IMG/VR virus record: IMGVR_UViG_2778261458_000007
Length of the DNA: 39,379 nucleotides
From: a virus
Lineage: Duplodnaviria > Heunggongvirae > Uroviricota > Caudoviricetes
Direction: 5' to 3' (one strand)
Of this stretch, positions 2,498 to 33,700 are shown piece after piece; position 1 is the first letter of the stretch; every line of letters starts with the position of its first letter. The notes under the pieces are model-generated. The model saw nothing but the letters and a program-made list of their open reading frames with translations, did not search any database and had not been told where the DNA came from. Made by a program: the position numbers and the translations under genes.

Positions 2498-2746
2498 TCA
2501 TGCAGCGTTGCTCACAGGACGATATACACGTTGCTGAACAGGAGGCTTTTTACCCTGGAACTCTGCCGGGCTTGCTGCCTGACGTTCATCAAGCCAACGC
2601 TCAACTTCATCACGGTTCCATGCGCAGCGTTTGTCAGTGATATACCAGCGTTTAGGAAATTCCCCTGCGCGCTCCATGCGGTCGATAGTGCTCCATGACA
2701 GTGGCACCACCGCCAGGAGTTCCTTCTTACCTAATGCACCTTTCAT
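2498..2746 (-). CDS. AlpA-family helix-turn-helix regulator / excisionase-like protein
   Basis: 82-aa ORF; segment LAVVPLSWSTIDRMERAGEFPKR resembles AlpA/Xis-type HTH; RBS GAGAGGT upstream. Confidence 0.6.
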   Translation of the reverse strand: MKGALGKKELLAVVPLSWSTIDRMERAGEFPKRWYITDKRCAWNRDEVERWLDERQAASPAEFQGKKPPVQQRVYRPVSNAA

Positions 2747-2795
2747 AAATACCTCTCTTGGTTGCAGTGCGGCGCGCGTGGCGCCGCGGTGGTGG

Positions 2796-3737
2796 TTACA
2801 TAGATGTTTCGTTTAATTCTTCCCGACGAACGCTGTAAACGTCGGTGGCTTTTGCCAGCAGTTCGTCATCATCTGAAAGTTTTTGTGCAATGTATTTGTA
2901 AGCCTTATCCAGTTCGGAGACAGTGCTGTAATTCATCGCTGCGCTGGTAAAGGCCATCAGCATTTCTTCTGGATCACGGCTATCCGATTTACGCGTTTGC
3001 TCATCAGGCTTTTTCGCTGGTTTAGCGTTGATCAGACTGTTCATTCCCGCAGCAGTGGTCGTTTGCGGAGTAATGTCTCGCTCAACGCGCGGTGCCGTTT
3101 CCTGTAATTCGTCTGGGGTGTAGACGCCCATGATTACGTCAGGACAGTGCAGGCGAGACCAGCGTTTTGTCGCAAGGTATGCGAGTTGTTGTTTCGGATC
3201 ACTGGCCCAAAGTGTGGAGTTTCTTACCTGTGCTTGAGACAGCATTAACTCAAGCACTCGAGGTTGATCCTCGCCCTTCATGGTTGCCCATACGCGAACA
3301 CCGCAGCCTTCTTCGTCTTTTAGAGTCCAGCCTGGTGCGATATATGGATTGCCGTTTTTGGATGTTTTCTCAACAAACTTACCGATCACGCGTTCCCACG
3401 GCCCGAACCACTCGTAGTTGATGCGATCTTTTGTTGGCGACATCGTTGAGATAACTGCGTTTACTAATTGGGCTTCATAACCTAGCGTGCCGTTCACAAC
3501 ATGGGTTTTCTGAGCCACGGCAAACGGGTTCATTCCCCACTGCGCAGCCTGCATTGCCACGGCCATGCAATCAGCTGGTTTCCCGGCGAGGTGCGCCGGT
3601 ACCGTTACGCGGCTTTGCGCCATTACCTCGGCGAATTTCATCAGTTGGTTCAAGCCGTCTGGGCTGAAAATAGTTGCAGCAGTTCCAGCGATTGCTGTGT
3701 CTACTGGTGCGTTGATGTTTGCGATGTCGTTGCTCAT
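2796..3737 (-). CDS. recT: RecT-family single-strand annealing protein
   Basis: Sequence resembles RecT family; ATG at 3737 overlaps stop of upstream exonuclease gene (ATGA); the longer ORF start at 3764 is less likely. Confidence 0.8.
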   Translation of the reverse strand: MSNDIANINAPVDTAIAGTAATIFSPDGLNQLMKFAEVMAQSRVTVPAHLAGKPADCMAVAMQAAQWGMNPFAVAQKTHVVNGTLGYEAQLVNAVISTMSPTKDRINYEWFGPWERVIGKFVEKTSKNGNPYIAPGWTLKDEEGCGVRVWATMKGEDQPRVLELMLSQAQVRNSTLWASDPKQQLAYLATKRWSRLHCPDVIMGVYTPDELQETAPRVERDITPQTTTAAGMNSLINAKPAKKPDEQTRKSDSRDPEEMLMAFTSAAMNYSTVSELDKAYKYIAQKLSDDDELLAKATDVYSVRREELNETSM

Positions 3738-5159: not shown

Positions 5160-5744
5160 TTATTGTTTGTTTTTTTCGTTCTGGTTGATGACAAATTCAA
5201 TGTAACTTTCGATCTTTGCTTTCTCGGTTTCGGGTAACAATGCGTAGCGCGAGCGATCATAGTTGATGGTCGCAGGGTCGTGCGGGTGAATCAGTAATTC
5301 ATAGCCGTGACGCCCGAATGCGGATGCAACATTCTCCAGGGTGGAAATGGAAACGCTGACCTCATTGTTTAACAGGCGGCTGATTGTCACCTGGGCTACG
5401 CCGGATGCGCGGTGAAGTTTTCCCTGTGTTGAAAGGTCGCGGCTTTCGCTCATCCAGCGTTCCAGGTTGTGAGCCGCCAGCTGGCCAATGTCGCTTGGGC
5501 CGACAGGCTGAAAACCTTCCTGAGAAAGCGAGCGATCGATATCAAGCCAGTTACGGGGTTTATTGGCGGCAGCTTCAATTTTTCGTGCAACCTGGTCGCC
5601 GATAACCTTCTTGCCAAGAGCCCAGCGGTTTACCAGATTTGCCTGAGTTCCAAGTTTTTCAGCCATCCGCGTCTGAACACCATTGAATTCACGGTCGATC
5701 AAGTCGTTGAGATTTTGCCTGCGGACGTCCTGGATACTTTTCAT
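5160..5744 (-). CDS. CI-like prophage repressor (tandem HTH, no recognisable S24 peptidase domain)
   Basis: 194-aa ORF divergent from cro-like gene across an operator cluster; two HTH-like segments (QTRMAEKLGTQANLVNRW and GVAQVTISRLLNNE); no Ala-Gly/Ser-Lys cleavage motifs seen. Confidence 0.7.
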   Translation of the reverse strand: MKSIQDVRRQNLNDLIDREFNGVQTRMAEKLGTQANLVNRWALGKKVIGDQVARKIEAAANKPRNWLDIDRSLSQEGFQPVGPSDIGQLAAHNLERWMSESRDLSTQGKLHRASGVAQVTISRLLNNEVSVSISTLENVASAFGRHGYELLIHPHDPATINYDRSRYALLPETEKAKIESYIEFVINQNEKNKQ

Positions 5745-6495: not shown

Positions 6496-7311
6496 ATGAG
6501 CAGACATGCAACAGATTGGGCCTGGGAGACAGATCCAGGTAGCTCATCATTAAAGCTCATACTGCTCTCGATGGCTGACAGAGCCGATGAATATAACCTC
6601 TGCTACCCAAGCATAGAACGCCTCGTTAAAGACACTTGCCTGAATAAAAAAACCGTGCAGGCCGGGCTTATATCGCTCATGAAAATGGGGCTTATTTCAG
6701 ATACCGGAGAGAGAAAGGGAGCGACGAAAAGAGTGCGGGTTTTCTCTCTTAATATAACAAAAAACGGGAACATTAAAGGTAACCGGGAAGGGTGTAATGA
6801 ACCCGAAAACGGTAATGTTACCGAAAACGGGAATATACCCAAAAACGGGATGTTGAATGATCCCAAAAACGGGATGTTGAATGATCCCAAAAACGGGATC
6901 CAGAACCAGTCATATAACCAGTCATTTAACCAAGAGAGGGAGAGCAGGACAAAAAACGGGGATTCTGTGCATCATGACCCCGGCGCAAACAACGCCGTGA
7001 TGAATAACTTTGTTCCTCCTGGTGGGCCAGGGCAATTAGGAAAATTTGTCATGCATGAACAATGGCAGCCATCAGATGACTTTCTTCGGAAAAGCTCATT
7101 GCAGGGGATCTACCTGGACAGTCTGCCAACGGCACAGGAACTTGCAGAGTTCAGAATTTACTGGATGGCTGAGGGTAAGGCATACCATCAGGCACAGTGG
7201 GAGCAGAAGCTGGCAAGGCGGCTGCAGATTAGCAGACAGAAGCAATCAACATTACCTGATAACAACGTTCCGCACTGGAACAGCCCTGAAGCATGGGAGG
7301 ATTTCTTGTGA
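6496..7311 (+). CDS. Replication initiation protein (lambda O-like, iterons embedded)
   Basis: 271-aa ORF with RBS GGAG; N-terminal HTH-like domain; internal AAAACGGGA iteron array coding KNG repeats; followed by coupled P-like gene. Confidence 0.7.
   Translation: MSRHATDWAWETDPGSSSLKLILLSMADRADEYNLCYPSIERLVKDTCLNKKTVQAGLISLMKMGLISDTGERKGATKRVRVFSLNITKNGNIKGNREGCNEPENGNVTENGNIPKNGMLNDPKNGMLNDPKNGIQNQSYNQSFNQERESRTKNGDSVHHDPGANNAVMNNFVPPGGPGQLGKFVMHEQWQPSDDFLRKSSLQGIYLDSLPTAQELAEFRIYWMAEGKAYHQAQWEQKLARRLQISRQKQSTLPDNNVPHWNSPEAWEDFL
6759..6961. repeat. Iteron array (AAAACGG[G/T]A, about 7 copies) within O-like gene, putative replication origin
   Basis: Cores at 6761, 6806, 6824, 6842, 6866, 6890, 6953; three copies are exact 24-bp tandem units CCCAAAAACGGGATGTTGAATGAT (6838-6861, 6862-6885, partial 6886-6903). 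Confidence 0.6.
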
Positions 7312-8093
7312 ACAACGTTTTTACCGCGATACAAAACCGTGACGGAGAAGCCCTTTCTCGCATGTCAGGTTATGAGCATCAGTACACCAACAATGACAAC
7401 GTGGTGAACATGTCAGCAGAGAGGCTTGTTGATGCCCTTTTCAAACAGCTGAAACAACTGTTTCCGGCGGCAGTGGTAACCAACCTGAAGACGCCAGAGC
7501 AGGAAGTTGCTGCAAAACAGCAGTGGATTGCTGCGTTTGCCGAAGGGGGGATCCGAACCCGTGAGCAGGTTTCTGCTGGTATGCGCCACGCCCGCGCCAG
7601 TGAATCTCCGTTCTGGCCGTCGCCTGGGCAATTCATCAAGTGGTGTAAAGACAGCAAGATGGTTCTTGGCGTCACCATTGACGATGTGATGGCGGAGTTT
7701 CACCGGTACAGCAAGGAAAAAAGTTTATATCCTGGTGGTCCCGAAAGATTCCCGTGGCGGCATCCGGTTATGTACTGGGTCGTATGCGATACCCGCCGTG
7801 CAATGTATCAGCGCCAGCTTAGCGAGATTGAGGTTGAGAAACACGCGCGCAGGCTGCTCGATGATTGGGCGAAAAAGGTGGCTTCCGGACAGCAGATACC
7901 CGATCCTGTGATCAGCATACAGGCAAAGCCAGAACCCATGAGTACGCCTCCGGACACAGGGAGAGACGTTTACCACCCGCCAGGGCGAAGTTTCGGGTGC
8001 ATGCCTAACGCCGCCACCCTTGGGGGAATAACACCGGCGCAGTGGCTGATGGAGGAATACAGGCGGGGAAAGGCGGCAGGATTTATCAAGTAA
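7308..8093 (+). CDS. Lambda P-like replication protein (helicase loader)
   Basis: Segment QQWIAAFAEGGIRTREQVSAGMRHARASESPFWPSPGQFIKWCK closely parallels lambda P; GTG start at 7308 with GGGAGGA upstream, overlapping O stop. Confidence 0.8.
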   Translation: MNNVFTAIQNRDGEALSRMSGYEHQYTNNDNVVNMSAERLVDALFKQLKQLFPAAVVTNLKTPEQEVAAKQQWIAAFAEGGIRTREQVSAGMRHARASESPFWPSPGQFIKWCKDSKMVLGVTIDDVMAEFHRYSKEKSLYPGGPERFPWRHPVMYWVVCDTRRAMYQRQLSEIEVEKHARRLLDDWAKKVASGQQIPDPVISIQAKPEPMSTPPDTGRDVYHPPGRSFGCMPNAATLGGITPAQWLMEEYRRGKAAGFIK

Positions 8094-8098
8094 TACCA

Positions 8099-8118
8099 GC
8101 GCGATAGCGCATTTTTTT
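8099..8118 (+). terminator. Weak intrinsic terminator after P-like gene
   Basis: Short GC hairpin GCGC-GATA-GCGC followed by seven T. Confidence 0.4.
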
Positions 8119-8129
8119 ACGTCTAAATG

Positions 8130-8146
8130 GTTACCTGTTAGGTAAT
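8130..8146. promoter_or_regulatory. Operator site 7: GTTACCTGTTAGGTAAT
   Basis: After P-gene terminator, upstream of -35 TTGATT. Confidence 0.55.
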
Positions 8147-8191
8147 AAAATATTCTAAAATCTATTGATTTCGTGTCTTATGTGGTTTTTA

Positions 8192-8208
8192 ATTACCTCA
8201 TGGGTAAA
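8192..8208. promoter_or_regulatory. Operator site 8: ATTACCTCATGGGTAAA
   Basis: Overlaps -10 TTTAAT and ends 2 bp before start codon at 8211. Confidence 0.55.
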
Positions 8209-8210
8209 TC

Positions 8211-8555
8211 ATGAGAAAACAGATACAGGCTCTTGGTCGACTCAAAACAGGCCAGATGAACAAAACAGAATCTGCGTATTGCCAGCACCTTGAGCAGCGT
8301 AAACGTGCAGGGGAAATCGCCTGGTATCGATTCGAGGGTATCAAGCTGCGGTTAGCTGACAACACGTTCTATACGCCAGATTTCGCTGTGATGCTCGCCA
8401 CCGGAGAGATGGAACTGCACGAAGTGAAAGGTTTCTGGACCGACGACGCCAGGGTGAAAACCAAAGTCGCCGCAGATCAGTATCCGTTCCGAATCATCGG
8501 GGTAACGGTTAAGCCAAAGAAAGCAGGTGGTGGCTGGAACATCGAAGAGTTCTGA
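8211..8555 (+). CDS. DUF1064-like protein (putative nuclease)
   Basis: 114-aa ORF; motif pattern resembles DUF1064 phage proteins; start sits immediately after operator site 8. Confidence 0.55.
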   Translation: MRKQIQALGRLKTGQMNKTESAYCQHLEQRKRAGEIAWYRFEGIKLRLADNTFYTPDFAVMLATGEMELHEVKGFWTDDARVKTKVAADQYPFRIIGVTVKPKKAGGGWNIEEF

Positions 8556-13577: not shown

Positions 13578-13654
13578 TGGCGTGGCATGCAGGATTCGAA
13601 CCTGCGACCAACCGCTTAGAAGGCGGTTGCTCTGTCCAACTGAGCTAATGCCAC
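13578..13654 (-). tRNA. tRNA-Arg (anticodon UCU)
   Basis: 77-nt cloverleaf on minus strand: acceptor GTGGCAT/ATGCCAC, D-arm GCTC...GAGC, anticodon stem ACCGC/GCGGT with loop CTTCTAA, T-arm GCAGG-TTCGAAT-CCTGC, encoded CCA; own terminator downstream. Confidence 0.85.
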
Positions 13655-30608: not shown

Positions 30609-31112
30609 TTATACTATTGAGTTTAATGATATCTTGTCCTTAATATCATTAAGTTTGCCATATATCTTTTTTGCATAAAAATCAGCATCCTCAATAAACC
30701 TCGACTTCTCATTATCAGGCATATTTTTGAAGGTATGTGCACATGTATATTGAGAGTAGTATTTGTGAAATTCTTGATACGCATTATTGAGTTCTTGTAA
30801 GTCTTTTTTATACTCAGGAAGGTATATGTTTATTAGCATTTCCATCGTTTGCAACGGATTCGCTCTTGATACGTCAAATTTACTATCAGAGTGGTATCTG
30901 GCATTTTTTACGAAATTGAGAATGGTAATTGTGCTTGAATCTATGACTTTTTTAGTAAGTATACAATTTATAAATAATTGCTCGCATTTATCCCTTAATA
31001 TTTTTTGTCGCTCTAATCTTATGCTGTTTTTGTATCCTTGTCTTGCATTTATATAAGTGGAAACTATAGCAATAACTGCACCTATCAATGCGCCTAAGAT
31101 AGTATTATCCAT
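30609..31112 (-). CDS. Membrane-anchored protein of unknown function
   Basis: Start ATG 31112 with AGGTGG upstream; one N-terminal TM segment (ILGALIGAVIAIVSTYI); AT-rich coding sequence. Confidence 0.5.
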   Translation of the reverse strand: MDNTILGALIGAVIAIVSTYINARQGYKNSIRLERQKILRDKCEQLFINCILTKKVIDSSTITILNFVKNARYHSDSKFDVSRANPLQTMEMLINIYLPEYKKDLQELNNAYQEFHKYYSQYTCAHTFKNMPDNEKSRFIEDADFYAKKIYGKLNDIKDKISLNSIV

Positions 31113-31137
31113 ATAAGCCACCTAAACTGCGTAAAAT

Positions 31138-32001
31138 TTATTTCCTGCCACTTCTGTAGTATATGTTGCGACCATTTTTGGTCACATTAACAACATGACC
31201 CTTTGTTTCTACTTTGTTATTTGTTGCCTTATATACTTCAAAGTCAAACCATGATATATGACTTATTTCGTCTATAGATACCATAATTTCTAGACCTTGA
31301 ACTTTCTTTTTGCTTATCCCTTTTATCGCAGCACTGCGCTTAATTTGGATTTCACCTGGGTAAGCGTTTGTAAATGTAACAGATAAATTTTCTTTGTTTC
31401 TGTACCCTGACATTAAAGGAACAAAAGATATGTGTTGGTGTGGCCCTTGATTTTCCGTTGGCTCACCAGAACCATTTATTATTCCAACGTATACTTTATT
31501 TGATGATAAAGTAATTAACATTGGTTTCTTAGGATCTGATTCGATTGCATCAAGCAATAGCAAATCTAAAGAACCCTGGGAGTACGTTTTTCGCAATACC
31601 CTAGCTTTCATTGCCTCTGATATTTTGTCATAAATATCACGTTTATAAAAACAACCTAAAAGAAGATCTTTTAGCCAAACAAAAGATACATAACACAAAG
31701 AGAAGCAAATTGATGTGACTGACAGAAGAAGTAGCCACATGTAAATTCTATCTGTTTCTGGTTTTGACGTTACATTAAAAGTTTCCACCATATCGTGAAC
31801 TAGGTGAAAATCAGGATATTTATATTTTATAAATGAGGCAATTATTACCGAAGCAACAAGGCAATATGTACCTAATGCAGCTACTTTCATATAAAGAAGC
31901 TGGCCTTCATGTCGGTATAAACGGAAATAATGATACTGGTTAGCGGTTATCATAATATAACCACTAACCAGAATGGGGATAATTAGAAGAGCTAACAACA
32001 C
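31138..32001 (-). CDS. Membrane protein of unknown function (three N-terminal TM segments plus soluble domain)
   Basis: 287-aa ORF; GTG start overlapping stop of upstream 69-aa gene, RBS AAGGA; hydrophobic stretches at roughly residues 1-20, 40-60, 85-105; AT-rich. Confidence 0.5.
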   Translation of the reverse strand: MLLALLIIPILVSGYIMITANQYHYFRLYRHEGQLLYMKVAALGTYCLVASVIIASFIKYKYPDFHLVHDMVETFNVTSKPETDRIYMWLLLLSVTSICFSLCYVSFVWLKDLLLGCFYKRDIYDKISEAMKARVLRKTYSQGSLDLLLLDAIESDPKKPMLITLSSNKVYVGIINGSGEPTENQGPHQHISFVPLMSGYRNKENLSVTFTNAYPGEIQIKRSAAIKGISKKKVQGLEIMVSIDEISHISWFDFEVYKATNNKVETKGHVVNVTKNGRNIYYRSGRK

Positions 32002-32210
32002 TATTTCCTTACAGTGGCAAGATCCTGTTTAACGATTGCAGCAGCGAGACGACGCATCTCCTTAACCTCAGGAAGCTCAGAAATTTGCTGTGATGAGATA
32101 TACACTCCACCACGCTTGTTAACCTGCGCTGACGCCGGAACTTCTGCATTTTTTGCCTGAGGGCTGGGTGCATTATCCCTCGTTTTTGTACGAGCGAACC
32201 AAAATCCCAT
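32001..32210 (-). CDS. Small basic protein (69 aa), first gene of accessory operon
   Basis: Strong RBS AGGAGGAGAT; directly downstream of operator-overlapped promoter. Confidence 0.45.
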   Translation of the reverse strand: MGFWFARTKTRDNAPSPQAKNAEVPASAQVNKRGGVYISSQQISELPEVKEMRRLAAAIVKQDLATVRK

Positions 32211-32235: not shown

Positions 32236-32252
32236 TTTACCTTTAAGGTAAT
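32236..32252. promoter_or_regulatory. Operator site 11 (accessory operon promoter): TTTACCTTTAAGGTAAT
   Basis: Overlaps -10 and +1 of leftward promoter TTGCAG-17-TACTAT. Confidence 0.55.
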
Positions 32253-32323: not shown

Positions 32324-33034
32324 TCAGAAGAACCCTGCCTTGTCGTTGATGTACTCCGCGTGTGTCTGGATATCACGCAGGCATTTGCTCACACCGACGA
32401 TGTAGCAGAACATGGTGGTCAGCTCCGCCGCTGCGCCCGATACGTCGTGCCCGTCGTCCTGTAACTGGTTCAGCAGATTCATCAGCAGTGAGTTCTCTGT
32501 CAGGCCGAGAACACCAGACGGCGAATGAATCAGGCTGCGGTAGCCGGGCTTCAGTGGGGCGCTGTAGGTTTTGTTCTCTACCTTCATTGCCTGCATCACT
32601 GCTGACGCCGTGGCGTTGGCTACCTGGTCGGCAACCATCTTTATGCGTTCTTCCTGCGGGAGCGAGTTTTTAATGTAGCGTCCGGTGCGGCGGATCTGAG
32701 GAAGAACCTCACCTGTAACCCATTTACGAAAGCGGTAGGGTATAGTGCCTGGTGTCACTGCGTCGCGGCAGCGTAGGATCAGTGTGTAGAGGCCTGACTC
32801 GGAGATGATGTTGATCTCTTTTACTCGGCTGTCAAAAATTGCACGATGTTCATGCCCTATGTTGAACATAGACCTTTCATCATCATCCAGTTTTTCAAGT
32901 GCTTGGGTGACGTTTTGGATACGCAGCGCACTACAAACGTCTTGGGCTACAAACCATGGTTGGCCATCGATAATGATGGAACGGATAGGGTTAACAGATT
33001 CAAATTTGAAGATGGCAGTTTGAGCATTAGCCAT
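32324..33034 (-). CDS. Bro-N domain antirepressor-like protein
   Basis: N-terminal region FVAQDVCSALRIQN...ISESGLYTLILRCRD...FRKWVTGEVLPQIRRTG matches Bro-N-type antirepressors; start ATG 33034 with GGAG upstream. Confidence 0.65.
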   Translation of the reverse strand: MANAQTAIFKFESVNPIRSIIIDGQPWFVAQDVCSALRIQNVTQALEKLDDDERSMFNIGHEHRAIFDSRVKEINIISESGLYTLILRCRDAVTPGTIPYRFRKWVTGEVLPQIRRTGRYIKNSLPQEERIKMVADQVANATASAVMQAMKVENKTYSAPLKPGYRSLIHSPSGVLGLTENSLLMNLLNQLQDDGHDVSGAAAELTTMFCYIVGVSKCLRDIQTHAEYINDKAGFF

Positions 33035-33190
33035 GGTGGTTATCTCCACTTAGTGATTTTAATCACCACCGCAACGCCAATTACTGGTGGTGAACTGGAC
33101 AAGGTTGGCGTACCGGCCTAAGTGGTACCGGCGTCCTTTCGGACCCCTGCCCAGCCCACCATAATTCGGATATAGCTGTGCTTAACGCAT

Positions 33191-33213
33191 AAAAAAACCA
33201 CGTCTGGCGTGGT
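33191..33213 (-). terminator. Intrinsic terminator inside leader upstream of Bro-N gene
   Basis: Hairpin ACCACG-CCAGA-CGTGGT followed on minus strand by T-run. Confidence 0.55.
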
Positions 33214-33302
33214 ATGCGCCACTTAGTAACCCGGGACGCCAATCCCGGCACTGGATTTTGCCAGTGCCTGATTACTATGGCACAAGAGGAGTGCGATGTA
33301 AA

Positions 33303-33319
33303 TTTACCTCAAAGGTAAA
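33303..33319. promoter_or_regulatory. Operator site 12 (antirepressor leader promoter): TTTACCTCAAAGGTAAA
   Basis: Overlaps -10 of leftward promoter TTGCAA-17-TATATT. Confidence 0.55.
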
Positions 33320-33346
33320 TATAAGCACTCCACTTGGTAATTGCAA
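33318..33346 (-). promoter_or_regulatory. Promoter of structured leader/sRNA upstream of Bro-N gene
   Basis: On minus strand -35 TTGCAA (33346-33341), 17-bp spacer, -10 TATATT (33323-33318) overlapping operator site 12. Confidence 0.45.
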
Positions 33347-33349
33347 ACC

Positions 33350-33607
33350 TTATCTGGTTTGTTTTCGTAATTGTTCGGCACAATAGTCGAGATGTGTTTG
33401 CAGCTCCTGCATAGACATCTGTGAGCTGGTGACGTAGTTAATCAGTGCAGTCAGTTCGGCAAGTGGGCCATCGACATTAAATCCATCCTTATCGAGATCC
33501 CGGAGTAATTTCATCAAGTGCGATCCCTCCACCAGTGATCTGACGCCTCCCGGCGTGTGAATCCTTTCGGTAAATCCGTCTTCCAGTGGATAGTGATACT
33601 GCTGCAT
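33350..33607 (-). CDS. Small antirepressor-like protein (homolog of Bro-N protein C-terminal domain), LexA-box associated
   Basis: About 45 percent identity by eye to residues about 150-215 of the Bro-N protein (shared LAELT, QTH..Y); start at second ATG 33607 with GGAG RBS; LexA box 23 bp upstream. Confidence 0.5.
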   Translation of the reverse strand: MQQYHYPLEDGFTERIHTPGGVRSLVEGSHLMKLLRDLDKDGFNVDGPLAELTALINYVTSSQMSMQELQTHLDYCAEQLRKQTR

Positions 33608-33629: not shown

Positions 33630-33645
33630 CTGTATATTTATACAG
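33630..33645. promoter_or_regulatory. LexA (SOS) box CTGTATATTTATACAG
   Basis: CTGT-N8-ACAG with AT-rich centre; extended match AACTGTATATTTATACAGTA to consensus TACTGTATATATATACAGTA; 23 bp upstream of small antirepressor-like gene. Confidence 0.75.
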
Positions 33646-33683
33646 TAGCAAATAATTTGTTTGCTATCCAGCACGTTTTGCAA

Positions 33684-33700
33684 ATTACCTGAAAGGTAAT
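33684..33700. promoter_or_regulatory. Operator site 13: ATTACCTGAAAGGTAAT (perfect palindrome)
   Basis: In divergent region between LexA-boxed small gene and tailspike gene; preceded by TTGCAA. Confidence 0.6.

What the first reader, a model, noticed from the sequence alone, without database searches (positions are those of the whole stretch)
32324..33607. Stand-alone copy of the Bro-N antirepressor C-terminal domain next to the full-length Bro-N gene
Residues about 150-215 of the Bro-N protein (...YRSLIHSPSGVLGLTENSLLMNLLNQLQDDGHDVSGAAAELTTMFCYIVGVSKCLRDIQTHAEY) align with most of the 85-aa protein (...ERIHTPGGVRSLVEGSHLMKLLRDLDKDGFNVDGPLAELTALINYVTSSQMSMQELQTHLDY). The two genes are tandem on the minus strand and separated by a regulated leader. 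Such a domain duplication could provide two antirepressors with different triggers (one LexA-controlled) or a dominant-negative regulator of the full-length protein.
Basis: seen in the sequence. Interest (0 to 1): 0.6.

Follow-up and report, generated by a model that had tools for sequence, protein, structure and literature searches.

The report
Two related antirepressors, separately controlled
This E. coli prophage carries two proteins with the same repressor-disabling domain, one switched on by DNA damage and one held off by a small antisense RNA; both parts are known kinds, but their pairing and shared domain do not seem to have been described.

Summary
The 85-aa protein and residues 151-228 of the Bro-N protein are 40% identical (BLASTP E 1e-19).

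The window is an epsilon15/phiV10-like (Uetakevirus) E. coli phage. The small gene is a close homologue (about 87% identical) of Ant, the LexA-controlled antirepressor of Salmonella phage SPC32H, solved in complex with its repressor Rep (PDB 5D50). It keeps a perfect LexA box, and the window also encodes a Rep homologue.

The Bro-N protein carries a diverged Ant domain at its C-terminus (E 2e-13 to 5D50 Ant; the modelled domain's best fold match is 5D50).

The "regulated leader" is a P1/P7 immI-type RNA switch. It consists of an IsrK-like RNA with a terminator and then a C4 antisense RNA. The two C4 recognition blocks match one target pair upstream and a second pair over the Bro-N ribosome-binding site. 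These blocks and targets co-vary perfectly across 78 related loci.

The same Ant domain sits behind Bro-N, AntA, Rha, ORF6N or P22_AR_N N-terminal domains. Every fusion whose context I examined lies in a Uetakevirus-like prophage.

Most likely there are two Rep antirepressors with different triggers. This is a new variant of known kinds, of moderate interest.

The parts
33350..33607 (-). ant: an 85-aa stand-alone antirepressor, orthologue of SPC32H Ant
   Evidence: phmmer against PDB chain 5D50_E ('Anti-repressor protein') gives E 1.8e-46. It is 86.7% identical to the annotated ant of SPC32H. dN/dS against SPC32H ant is about 0.05.
33630..33645 (.). LexA box CTGTATATTTATACAG, overlapping the likely ant promoter (TGGATA 33665-33670, 17-nt spacer, TACTGT 33642-33647; the promoter is inferred)
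   Evidence: It is the only CTGT-N8-ACAG site in this region. A box lies at -37 to -40 from the ant start in 76 of 77 related loci and in SPC32H.
33685..33699 (.). Rep-type palindrome TTACCTGAAAGGTAA between ant and the divergent tailspike gene. It probably belongs to the tailspike promoter; any effect on ant is unknown.
   Evidence: The motif occurs 11 times against 0.04 expected. The same palindrome sits at the same place in SPC32H. The layout resembles the other operator-flanked promoters in the window.
33304..33318 (.). Rep-type palindrome that abuts the -35 hexamer of the leader promoter
   Evidence: The half-sites are conserved and the centre varies across 60 distinct leaders. The promoter-like site TTTACA-17-CATAGT with an upstream TG lies at 33302..33274 on the minus strand.
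33191..33267 (-). IsrK-like RNA. It carries the first target pair (b1 UUGGCGU 33236-33242, a1 CUAAGUGG 33219-33226) and an intrinsic terminator (33197-33213).
Evidence: Rfam RF01394 scores 67.7 bits against a gathering score of 50. c4-a1b1 RF03163 scores 42.6 against 46.7.
33083..33166 (-). C4 antisense RNA, with recognition blocks a' CCACUUAG (33118-33125) and b' ACGCCAA (33105-33111)
   Evidence: Rfam RF01695 scores 66 bits against a gathering score of 45. The predicted fold puts a' in a hairpin loop and b' in a single-stranded stretch. The blocks co-vary with their targets.
33045..33080 (-). Second target pair: b2 UUGGCGU (33074-33080) and a2 CUAAGUGG (33046-33053). a2 overlaps the GGAG Shine-Dalgarno sequence (33045-33048) of the Bro-N gene.
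32324..33034 (-). Bro-N::AntC gene, 236 aa. Bro-N domain is residues 17-112 (32699-32986). A helical linker and a low-confidence segment follow. The Ant-like domain is about residues 153-233 (32336-32578).
   Evidence: Pfam. 5D50_E at E 2.2e-13. AlphaFold models and a Foldseek top hit to 5D50_G/H. The near-identical C-terminal domain in phage ZX5 ORF4 has antirepressor-like activity when over-expressed (PMC9782041).
5160..5744 (-). rep: the repressor that Ant is expected to disable
   Evidence: 5D50_A 'Repressor' at E 4e-42. It is flanked by paired TTACC-N5-GGTAA palindromes. It is 100% identical in phiV10, ZX5 and other E. coli Uetakeviruses.
32237..32251 (.). Third Rep-type palindrome of the region. 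It overlaps the -10 hexamer of a promoter-like site (TTGCAG-17-TACTAT) for the downstream 69-aa gene.

Best explanation
The phage has two antirepressors that share one homologous repressor-binding domain and sit under two different controls.

**1. ant (85 aa)** is the SOS arm.
- LexA sits on its promoter.
- After DNA damage Ant is made and takes the Rep repressor off its TTACC-N5-GGTAA operators. In SPC32H a tetrameric Ant does this by binding the C-terminal domains of two Rep dimers.

**2. The Bro-N::AntC protein** is an immI-type arm.
- Its operon starts at a promoter abutted by a Rep operator.
- Most transcripts stop at the IsrK-like terminator. Read-through transcripts carry the C4 RNA and then the gene.
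- C4 pairs through two short blocks (a', b') with the ribosome-binding region (b2, a2) and blocks translation.
- The upstream copy of the targets (b1, a1, in the IsrK-like RNA) competes for C4.
- When C4 is outnumbered, or cannot recognise an incoming phage of another C4 class, the protein is made. Its C-terminal Ant-like domain then binds Rep.

**How sure each step is**
- Shown here: the homologies, the RNA elements, the complementarity and its covariation, and the operator and LexA sites.
- Shown by others in close relatives: the Ant-Rep mechanism (SPC32H), and the pro-lytic effect of the Bro-N::AntC protein (phage ZX5, which has the same Rep).
- Inferred: that AntC binds Rep directly, the direction of Rep's effect on the leader promoter, and the biological occasion. 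The occasion could be superinfection or establishment, as for P1 Ant, or reinforcement of induction.
For: **Homology**
- Pairwise E 1e-19.
- Both proteins hit 5D50 Ant.
- The model of the AntC domain alone best matches 5D50_G/H (probability 1.00, TM 0.57-0.75).

**Partner**
- A Rep homologue is present in the window.
- In the phage collection the Ant domain is found only in the 32-35 Uetakevirus-like records that match it. The Rep search (37 records) returns essentially the same set of phages.

**Control of ant**
- The LexA box is conserved in 76 of 77 loci.

**Control of the Bro-N gene**
- isrK and C4 score above the Rfam gathering scores.
- The two target pairs were located.
- Across the 78 loci analysed (the window plus 77 of the fetched IMG/VR loci), a'/a1/a2 and b'/b1/b2 fall into 5 complementarity classes. 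Pairing is complete in 77 loci; in the remaining locus only the b' block could not be scored, because of an alignment offset.
- Further classes occur in Klebsiella and Enterobacter phages.
- The RNA cassette accompanies the fused gene whether the N-terminal domain is Bro-N, AntA or Rha.

**Function**
- ZX5 ORF4 has an AntC domain 98.8% identical to the window's, and ZX5 Rep is 100% identical. Over-expressing ORF4 cut lysogens about 1000-fold and lowered rep transcription by 75% (PMC9782041).

**Selection**
- dN/dS for AntC is 0.06-0.25.

**Modularity**
- The Ant domain is always C-terminal. It follows Bro-N, AntA, Rha, ORF6N or P22_AR_N domains.
- Of these, Bro-N, AntA, Rha and P22_AR_N fusions were checked for context. 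All lie next to ant in Uetakevirus-like prophages. ORF6N was not checked.

**Analogues**
- Gifsy-1 isrK-orf45-anrP (PMC4825925).
- P1/P7 c4-icd-ant (my own knowledge).
Against: - No direct evidence that the Bro-N::AntC protein touches Rep. The two Ant domains are only 40% identical, and I could not map the 5D50 interface residues.
- The ZX5 experiment used over-expression of a GST-tagged protein, so it does not show a direct interaction.
- The Rep operator lies upstream of the -35 hexamer (about -37 to -51). At that position Rep could activate rather than repress.
- Rep C-terminal domains are only 37% identical between the window and SPC32H, although Ant is 87% identical. The Ant-Rep fit is therefore not simply readable from sequence.
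- The reference phage phiV10 has a frameshift in this gene, so the gene is dispensable for phage viability.
- The full-length model is only moderate (mean pLDDT 70).
Confidence: 0.62

Rival explanations
1. The Ant-like domain of the Bro-N protein serves as an oligomerisation module only. It would either tetramerise a Bro-N DNA-binding regulator that acts on its own targets, or form mixed tetramers with the small Ant and so tune or poison it. The second option is the first reader's dominant-negative idea.
For: SPC32H Ant is a tetramer (PMC9638917 discussion). The predicted AntC domain is dominated by one long helix that could pack in a bundle. The Bro-N fold resembles DNA-binding Dachshund/SKI domains. 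The ZX5 over-expression phenotype does not distinguish direct Rep binding from other routes.
Against: Polar residues are invariant across both subfamilies (H17, S29, D41, E51, T71, H72 and others). Natural chimeras exist between the two types (P0143, P0115, and the Klebsiella small Ant). Together these suggest a shared binding function rather than a mere scaffold. The domain occurs only in genomes with a Rep-type repressor. The N-terminal domain is freely exchanged while AntC is kept. That is the opposite of what is expected if the N-terminal domain carried the specific function.
Confidence: 0.15
2. The Bro-N::AntC protein targets a different repressor from the phage's own Rep. It would be a trans-acting antirepressor for cross-induction of other resident prophages, as described for the Gifsy and Fels prophages.
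For: Trans-acting antirepressors exist in Salmonella prophages (PMC3121763, listed; PMC7380047). The AntC domain has diverged to 40% identity from the resident Ant. TL-2011b carries a third copy, fused to P22_AR_N.
Against: All fusions whose context was examined lie in Uetakevirus-like prophages next to ant. The domain was not found in any other phage type among 50,697 records. AntC divergence tracks Rep divergence across E. coli, Enterobacter and Klebsiella relatives (Rep 100, 78 and 45% identity; AntC 98, 77-79 and 52-54%). ZX5 ORF4 acts on ZX5 itself.
Confidence: 0.13
3. The similarity is chance or low-complexity, or the second copy is a decaying duplicate without function.
For: phiV10 has a frameshifted copy.
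Against: E 1e-19 with no gaps. Intact 226-238-aa orthologues occur in many Enterobacteriaceae. dN/dS is 0.06-0.25. The regulatory RNAs are conserved and co-vary.
Confidence: 0.02

Closest known systems
Ant-Rep antirepression system of Salmonella phage SPC32H (Kim & Ryu 2013, J Virol; Kim et al. 2016, PNAS; PDB 5D50, 5D4Z)
   Same: The small gene is an orthologue (86.7% identical). It occupies the same slot between the end of the late operon and the tailspike gene. It has the same LexA box position, the same type of Rep, and the same TTACC-N5-GGTAA palindromes.
   Different: SPC32H has only the small Ant. The window adds a second gene whose C-terminus is a 40%-identical Ant domain fused to Bro-N, behind an RNA switch. 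Rep is only 42% identical to SPC32H Rep.
immI region of phages P1 and P7 (c4 antisense RNA, icd, ant1/ant2)
   Same: A C4 RNA is processed from the leader of the antirepressor operon. There are two recognition blocks, one target pair upstream and one over a ribosome-binding site. The operon promoter carries an operator for the primary repressor. There are specificity classes that differ while the primary repressor stays the same (window class A against ZX5 class C, with identical Rep). One relative even has the P1/P7-type AntA N-terminal domain.
   Different: There is no conserved icd-like coupled ORF. The a2 target overlaps the Shine-Dalgarno sequence of the antirepressor gene itself. The C-terminal domain is the Uetakevirus Ant domain. 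The module sits beside a LexA-controlled paralogue. Details of P1/P7 are from my own knowledge.
Gifsy-1 isrK-orf45-anrP locus (Hershko-Shalev et al. 2016, PMC4825925)
   Same: An IsrK-type RNA with its own terminator, read-through into a C4-like stable RNA (STnc1160) and an antirepressor-like gene, and complementarity between IsrK and the downstream RNA.
   Different: In Gifsy-1, translation passes through orf45 by coupling, and the output is expression of AntQ. Here no conserved upstream ORF exists, and the antirepressor carries the Ant domain.
Modular Bro-N / KilA-N / Rha / AntA / ORF6N phage regulators (Iyer, Koonin & Aravind 2002; my own knowledge)
   Same: An N-terminal Bro-N domain joined to an exchangeable C-terminal domain.
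   Different: Here the C-terminal domain is identified with a solved, biochemically characterised repressor-binding protein. This assigns the target-specific role to the C-terminal half.
ORF4 'anti-repressor' of phage vB_EcoP_ZX5 (Li et al. 2022, PMC9782041)
   Same: Same gene family, about 80% identical overall and 98.8% in the AntC domain, with an identical Rep. Its pro-lytic effect has been shown experimentally.
   Different: A different allele of the first half of the Bro-N domain, and a different C4 class. That paper did not mention the small Ant, the LexA box, the shared domain or the RNAs.

Membership tests
SPC32H-type Ant (small antirepressor, PDB 5D50 chain E) | Sequence homology over the whole ~86-aa protein | tested here: met
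   E 1.8e-46 over residues 7-89 of the ORF against 3-85 of the chain. 86.7% identity to the SPC32H ant gene.
SPC32H-type Ant (small antirepressor, PDB 5D50 chain E) | LexA box in the promoter (SOS control) | tested here: met
   CTGTATATTTATACAG at 33630-33645. Same position in SPC32H and in 76 of 77 relatives. LexA binding itself was not tested.
SPC32H-type Ant (small antirepressor, PDB 5D50 chain E) | A cognate Rep-type repressor in the same genome | tested here: met
   Window 5160..5744 against 5D50_A, E 4e-42.
SPC32H-type Ant (small antirepressor, PDB 5D50 chain E) | Tetramer that binds Rep and releases it from DNA | not testable with these tools
   Needs biochemistry or a multimer model.
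Ant domain within the Bro-N protein (residues ~153-233) | Homology and the same fold as 5D50 Ant | tested here: met
   E 2.2e-13. Foldseek of the domain model puts 5D50_G/H on top (probability 1.00, TM 0.57-0.75, 38-39% identity). The E-value of the fold match itself is weak (0.02), and the full-length model did not retrieve 5D50.
Ant domain within the Bro-N protein (residues ~153-233) | Binds Rep | not testable with these tools
   Indirect support only: the ZX5 over-expression result and co-occurrence with Rep.
Bro-N domain proteins (PF02498) | Match above the Pfam gathering score | tested here: met
   71.4 bits against 25.6, residues 17-112.
P1/P7 immI-type C4 control | C4 antisense RNA in the leader | tested here: met
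   RF01695, 66 bits against 45. Also present in 8 related loci.
P1/P7 immI-type C4 control | Upstream target pair a1/b1 | tested here: met
   RF03163 scores 42.6, just under its gathering score of 46.7. The overlapping isrK model passes (67.7 against 50). Both blocks are fully complementary to C4 and co-vary with it.
P1/P7 immI-type C4 control | Downstream target pair a2/b2 over a ribosome-binding site | tested here: met
   a2 at 33046-33053 overlaps GGAG at 33045-33048. Across the 78 loci analysed, a'/a2 pairing is complete in all 78 and b'/b2 pairing in 77; the remaining locus could not be scored for b'.
P1/P7 immI-type C4 control | An icd-like upstream ORF translationally coupled to ant | tested here: not met
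   The small ORFs over the C4 region differ in frame and end point between the window and ZX5. The system therefore works like immI but is not an exact member.
P1/P7 immI-type C4 control | C4 RNA made by processing, and repression of translation in vivo | not testable with these tools
   Needs Northern blots and reporter fusions.
Gifsy-1 IsrK locus | IsrK RNA with an intrinsic terminator upstream of an antirepressor-like gene | tested here: met
   RF01394, 67.7 bits against 50. Terminator at 33197-33213.

The most novel reading that the evidence does not exclude
The two arms may form a two-stage latch.

- In the common 319-nt arrangement there is no terminator between ant and the leader. SOS-induced ant transcripts should therefore run on to the IsrK terminator and carry the a1/b1 decoy in their 3' end.
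- A burst of ant mRNA would titrate C4 at the same time as Ant removes Rep from the leader promoter. Together these would unlock the second, Rep-binding antirepressor and make induction irreversible.

Independently, the C4 classes vary while Rep stays identical. This would give epsilon15/phiV10-like phages a P1/P7-style second layer of immunity: a phage of one class could escape the immunity of a lysogen of another class.

More generally, the C-terminal domain of modular Bro-N/AntA/Rha/ORF6N/P22_AR_N 'antirepressors' would be the captured, repressor-specific warhead, and the N-terminal domain an exchangeable chassis.
Probability: 0.25. Interest if true: 0.65.

Novelty: new variant of a known kind. 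Interest (0 to 1): 0.5.

Why it matters
**A template for an unsolved question.** Bro-N and AntA 'antirepressors' are annotated in thousands of prophages, but how they recognise their repressor is mostly unknown. Here the C-terminal domain of one such protein is homologous to a small antirepressor whose complex with its repressor has been solved. This gives a structural template and a clear, testable statement: the C-terminal domain is the target-specific part.

**Wider reach of a known switch.** The P1/P7-type C4 RNA immunity switch operates in a quite different phage group, the podoviral Uetakeviruses. It comes in several co-varying specificity classes while the repressor stays identical. This predicts hidden heteroimmunity among prophages carried by about 10% of complete E. 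coli genomes.

**Annotation.** The small Ant is labelled 'hypothetical protein' in the E. coli chromosome records listed here and in most of the related phage records, and the RNAs are not annotated in the phage records examined.

Tried and rejected
- **Primary papers not held.** The two SPC32H papers could not be read. The Ant-Rep mechanism is therefore cited from PDB entry names, from a later paper's discussion, and from my own memory of the 2016 abstract.
- **Foldseek with the full-length model.** It returned only Bro-N-like and Dachshund/SKI folds and not 5D50. The domain-only model was needed.
- **RNAduplex on the whole C4 against whole target regions.** The result was dominated by non-specific long pairings (the a1b1 region did not differ from shuffles). 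I replaced it with block-level complementarity and covariation.
- **Word-indexed protein searches with the two short domains.** They returned only close relatives and fragments. The exhaustive profile search was needed to see the architectures.
- **Pfam, NCBIfam and PADLOC.** None has a family for the Ant domain.
- **An icd/orf45-like coupled ORF.** I looked for one in the leader and rejected it, because the frames are not conserved.
- **The 33685 palindrome as an operator of the ant promoter.** I considered this. Its layout fits the divergent tailspike promoter better, so I left it undecided.
- **An internal start producing a free AntC** (as with P1 Ant1/Ant2). There is no convincing Shine-Dalgarno sequence before M148 or M151, so I did not pursue it.
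- **Stand-alone 95-aa type-2 proteins in Klebsiella.** They lie in small prophage remnants and may be truncated genes.
Full report
**Setting**

The window is a complete or nearly complete epsilon15/phiV10-like (Uetakevirus) temperate phage of E. coli. The region 31900-33900 matches phages HEMP4, TL-2011b, ZX5, phiV10 and others at 91-98% identity. It also matches 534 of 5426 complete E. coli genomes.

The finding lies between the end of the late operon and the divergent tailspike gene (33804 onward, plus strand).

**The observation**

On the minus strand there are an 85-aa gene (33350..33607) and a 236-aa gene (32324..33034).
- BLASTP of the two products gives 31/78 identities, no gaps, E 1e-19. 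It aligns residues 151-228 of the larger protein with nearly all of the smaller one.
- The larger protein has a Bro-N domain at residues 17-112.
- There is no third copy in the window.

**What the small protein is**

It hits PDB chain 5D50_E, 'Anti-repressor protein', at E 1.8e-46. It is 86.7% identical to the annotated ant gene of Salmonella phage SPC32H.

5D50 is the Rep-Ant complex. The window also encodes a Rep homologue (5160..5744, E 4e-42 to 5D50_A).

[quoted passage not shown] From my own memory of the 2013 and 2016 papers, ant is repressed by LexA and Rep is not cleaved.

The window keeps a perfect LexA box, CTGTATATTTATACAG, at 33630-33645. It sits at the same distance from the start codon as in SPC32H and as in 76 of 77 related loci.

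The small gene is therefore not an accessory copy. It is the primary, SOS-controlled antirepressor of this phage group. It is under strong purifying selection (dN/dS about 0.05 against SPC32H).

**What the Bro-N protein is**

Its C-terminal ~80 residues hit the same PDB chain at E 2.2e-13.
- An AlphaFold model of the whole protein shows a confident Bro-N domain, helical linkers, a low-confidence segment (residues 143-162), and a helical C-terminal domain.
- A model of the C-terminal domain alone has 5D50_G/H as its only meaningful Foldseek matches (probability 1.00, TM 0.57-0.75, 38-39% identity).

I call this domain AntC.

Phage ZX5 has a Rep 100% identical to the window's and an AntC domain 98.8% identical. 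Over-expression of its orthologue ORF4 lowered the number of lysogens about 1000-fold and reduced rep transcription by 75% (PMC9782041). That paper did not mention the small Ant, the LexA box or any RNA.

**The leader**

Rfam places two families above their gathering scores between the two genes:
- isrK (RF01394): 33191..33267, 67.7 bits against 50.
- C4 antisense RNA (RF01695): 33083..33166, 66 bits against 45.

The model for the a1/b1 targets of C4 scores just under its threshold.

C4 has two recognition blocks: CCACUUAG in the loop of its second hairpin, and ACGCCAA in the following single-stranded stretch. Their complements occur twice, in the same order:
- UUGGCGU then CUAAGUGG inside the IsrK-like RNA.
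- The same pair again just upstream of the Bro-N start, where CUAAGUGG overlaps the GGAG Shine-Dalgarno sequence.

I fetched 78 related viral contigs and aligned their leaders.
- The blocks fall into five combinations: three a-types (CCACUUAG, CCUUUGUAG, CCUUUUAG) and three b-types (ACGCCAA, GUGCAAA, AGACCAA).
- Across the 78 loci analysed (the window plus 77 of the fetched loci), both copies of each target change together with C4. Pairing is complete in 77 loci; in the remaining locus only the b' block could not be scored, because of an alignment offset.
- A further a-type (CCGUUUAG, with targets CUAAACGG and CUAAGCGG) occurs in a Klebsiella phage.

This three-way covariation is strong evidence that the pairing is functional.

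The arrangement is that of the immI region of P1 and P7 (my own knowledge) and of the Gifsy-1 isrK-orf45-anrP locus. In Gifsy-1, short IsrK acts in trans to switch on translation of an antirepressor-like gene, and a stable C4-like RNA (STnc1160) is processed from the read-through transcript (PMC4825925).

Unlike both models, no coupled upstream ORF is conserved here. C4 would act directly on the ribosome-binding site of the antirepressor gene.

**Operators**

The palindrome TTACCTNNNAGGTAA, allowing one mismatch, occurs 11 times against 0.04 expected.
- Pairs of sites bracket promoter-like sequences on both sides of rep and before the gene at 8211. Single sites precede the late operon and the tailspike gene.
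- SPC32H has the same kind of palindrome at the same places.

I infer these are Rep operators. Three lie in the region of the finding:
- 33685-33699: probably belongs to the tailspike promoter.
- 33304-33318: abuts the -35 hexamer of the leader promoter TTTACA-17-CATAGT. Its half-sites are conserved and its centre varies in 60 distinct leaders.
- 32237-32251: lies over the -10 hexamer of a promoter for the downstream 69-aa gene.

Whether Rep represses or activates the leader promoter cannot be decided from its position alone.

**Distribution and evolution**

SPC32H and epsilon15 have only the small ant. E. coli, Enterobacter and Klebsiella relatives have ant plus the RNA cassette plus a fused gene.

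An exhaustive profile search of 1.84 billion representative proteins found only 62 clusters with the domain.
- Most are 82-95-aa stand-alone proteins.
- The fusions always carry the domain at the extreme C-terminus.
- The N-terminal partner is Bro-N, AntA (the P1/P7 Ant N-terminal family), Phage_pRha or ORF6N. In TL-2011b it is P22_AR_N.

Every fusion whose context I looked at lies in a Uetakevirus-like prophage next to ant. That covers Bro-N in many loci, AntA, two Rha fusions and the P22_AR_N fusion. The Bro-N, AntA and Rha fusions sit behind isrK and C4.

Among 50,697 phage records, the domain occurs only in the 32-35 Uetakevirus-like records that match it. A search with Rep (37 records) returns essentially the same set of phages.

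Within E. coli phages:
- AntC is 97-99% identical, with dN/dS of 0.06-0.07.
- The first half of the Bro-N domain and the C4 class are swapped as a block (dS 0.71 against 0.09-0.15).

Natural chimeras between the two Ant types exist, and the Klebsiella small Ant carries the type-2 motif DGHDVSGAAAEL. This suggests gene conversion between the tandem copies.

**Interpretation**

The simplest reading is that AntC is the Rep-specific part and has been grafted onto a generic, RNA-controlled antirepressor module. The phage thereby has two antirepressors for one repressor:
- One answers to LexA.
- The other answers to the balance between C4 and its targets, and perhaps to Rep itself.

Because Rep is identical among E. 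coli members while the C4 classes differ (window class A; ZX5 and TL-2011b class C), the module could give P1/P7-like heteroimmunity.

In the common arrangement no terminator separates ant from the leader. SOS transcripts may therefore carry the decoy targets. In about a third of loci, however, an 833-nt insertion with terminators lies in between. That coupling is therefore not universal, and I rate it as speculative.

**Limits**

- Direct binding of AntC to Rep is not shown.
- The interface residues of 5D50 could not be mapped.
- Rep C-terminal domains are only 37% identical between the window and SPC32H, although Ant is 87% identical.
- phiV10 carries a frameshifted copy.

**Verdict**

Each component belongs to a known kind. 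The shared domain, the pairing of an SOS arm with an immI-type arm, and the C4 classes in this phage group are, as far as the literature I could search shows, undescribed.

Noticed in passing
window 30609..32210 (minus strand): Downstream of the Bro-N gene lie a 69-aa gene (phrog_5739), a 287-aa gene and a 170-aa gene. The latter two look like membrane proteins by eye, with hydrophobic N-termini (no transmembrane prediction was run). They have no Pfam, NCBIfam or PADLOC match and sit in a 31-35% GC island, against about 47% around it. The 69-aa gene's promoter is overlapped by a Rep-type palindrome. Related loci carry different genes in this slot, so this may be exclusion or defence cargo.
   Followed up: partly
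L007 1875..2603 (and about a third of the 78 related loci): An insertion of about 833 nt lies between ant and the leader promoter. It carries a 242-aa ORF on the opposite strand with a Cys-rich C-terminus (weak Stc1 match). Terminator-like hairpins flank it and would uncouple ant transcription from the leader.
   Followed up: partly
window 5026, 5088, 5800, 5848, 6185, 8131, 8193, 13978, 33685: TTACC-N5-GGTAA palindromes bracket promoter-like sites across the genome. They include sites before the late operon and the tailspike gene, which suggests Rep represses late genes directly. A second motif, ATATGTGGTT (one copy lacks the first A), recurs downstream of three of them (8131, 13978, 33685).
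   Followed up: partly
L001 (phiV10, DQ126339.2) 2512..3191: The reference phage phiV10 has its Bro-N::AntC gene split by a frameshift into p23 (194 aa) and p22 (29 aa). This is either a real inactivation or a sequencing error.
   Followed up: no
L004 (TL-2011b) 7277..8221: There is a third Ant-domain copy in one genome, fused to a P22_AR_N domain (314 aa). No C4 or IsrK match lies next to it.
   Followed up: partly
L089-L091 5001..5288 (Klebsiella chromosomes): A stand-alone 95-aa type-2 Ant-domain gene sits beside an AlpA-like gene and a HicA/HicB pair, in a small island that looks like a prophage remnant (in L090, an acyltransferase and a tailspike-like gene lie nearby). It may be a truncated fusion or a free-standing antirepressor.
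   Followed up: no
window 32585..32593 (codons M148 and M151 of the Bro-N gene): Stand-alone type-2 proteins start at MPAILEAMK. In fused proteins this sequence is internal (…FMPAILEAMK…). This raises the possibility of an internal start that gives a free Ant domain, as with P1 Ant1/Ant2. No convincing Shine-Dalgarno sequence is present in the window.
   Followed up: no
window 13581..13654 (minus strand): A tRNA gene (73.3 bits), at the same relative place as the tRNA-Arg annotated in SPC32H.
   Followed up: no
window 33083..33251 and L002 1779..1892: Short ORFs called over the C4 RNA are annotated in public records as 'ash family protein' or are fused to the N-terminus of the downstream gene (P0162). 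These are probably translations of the RNA gene rather than real proteins.
   Followed up: partly
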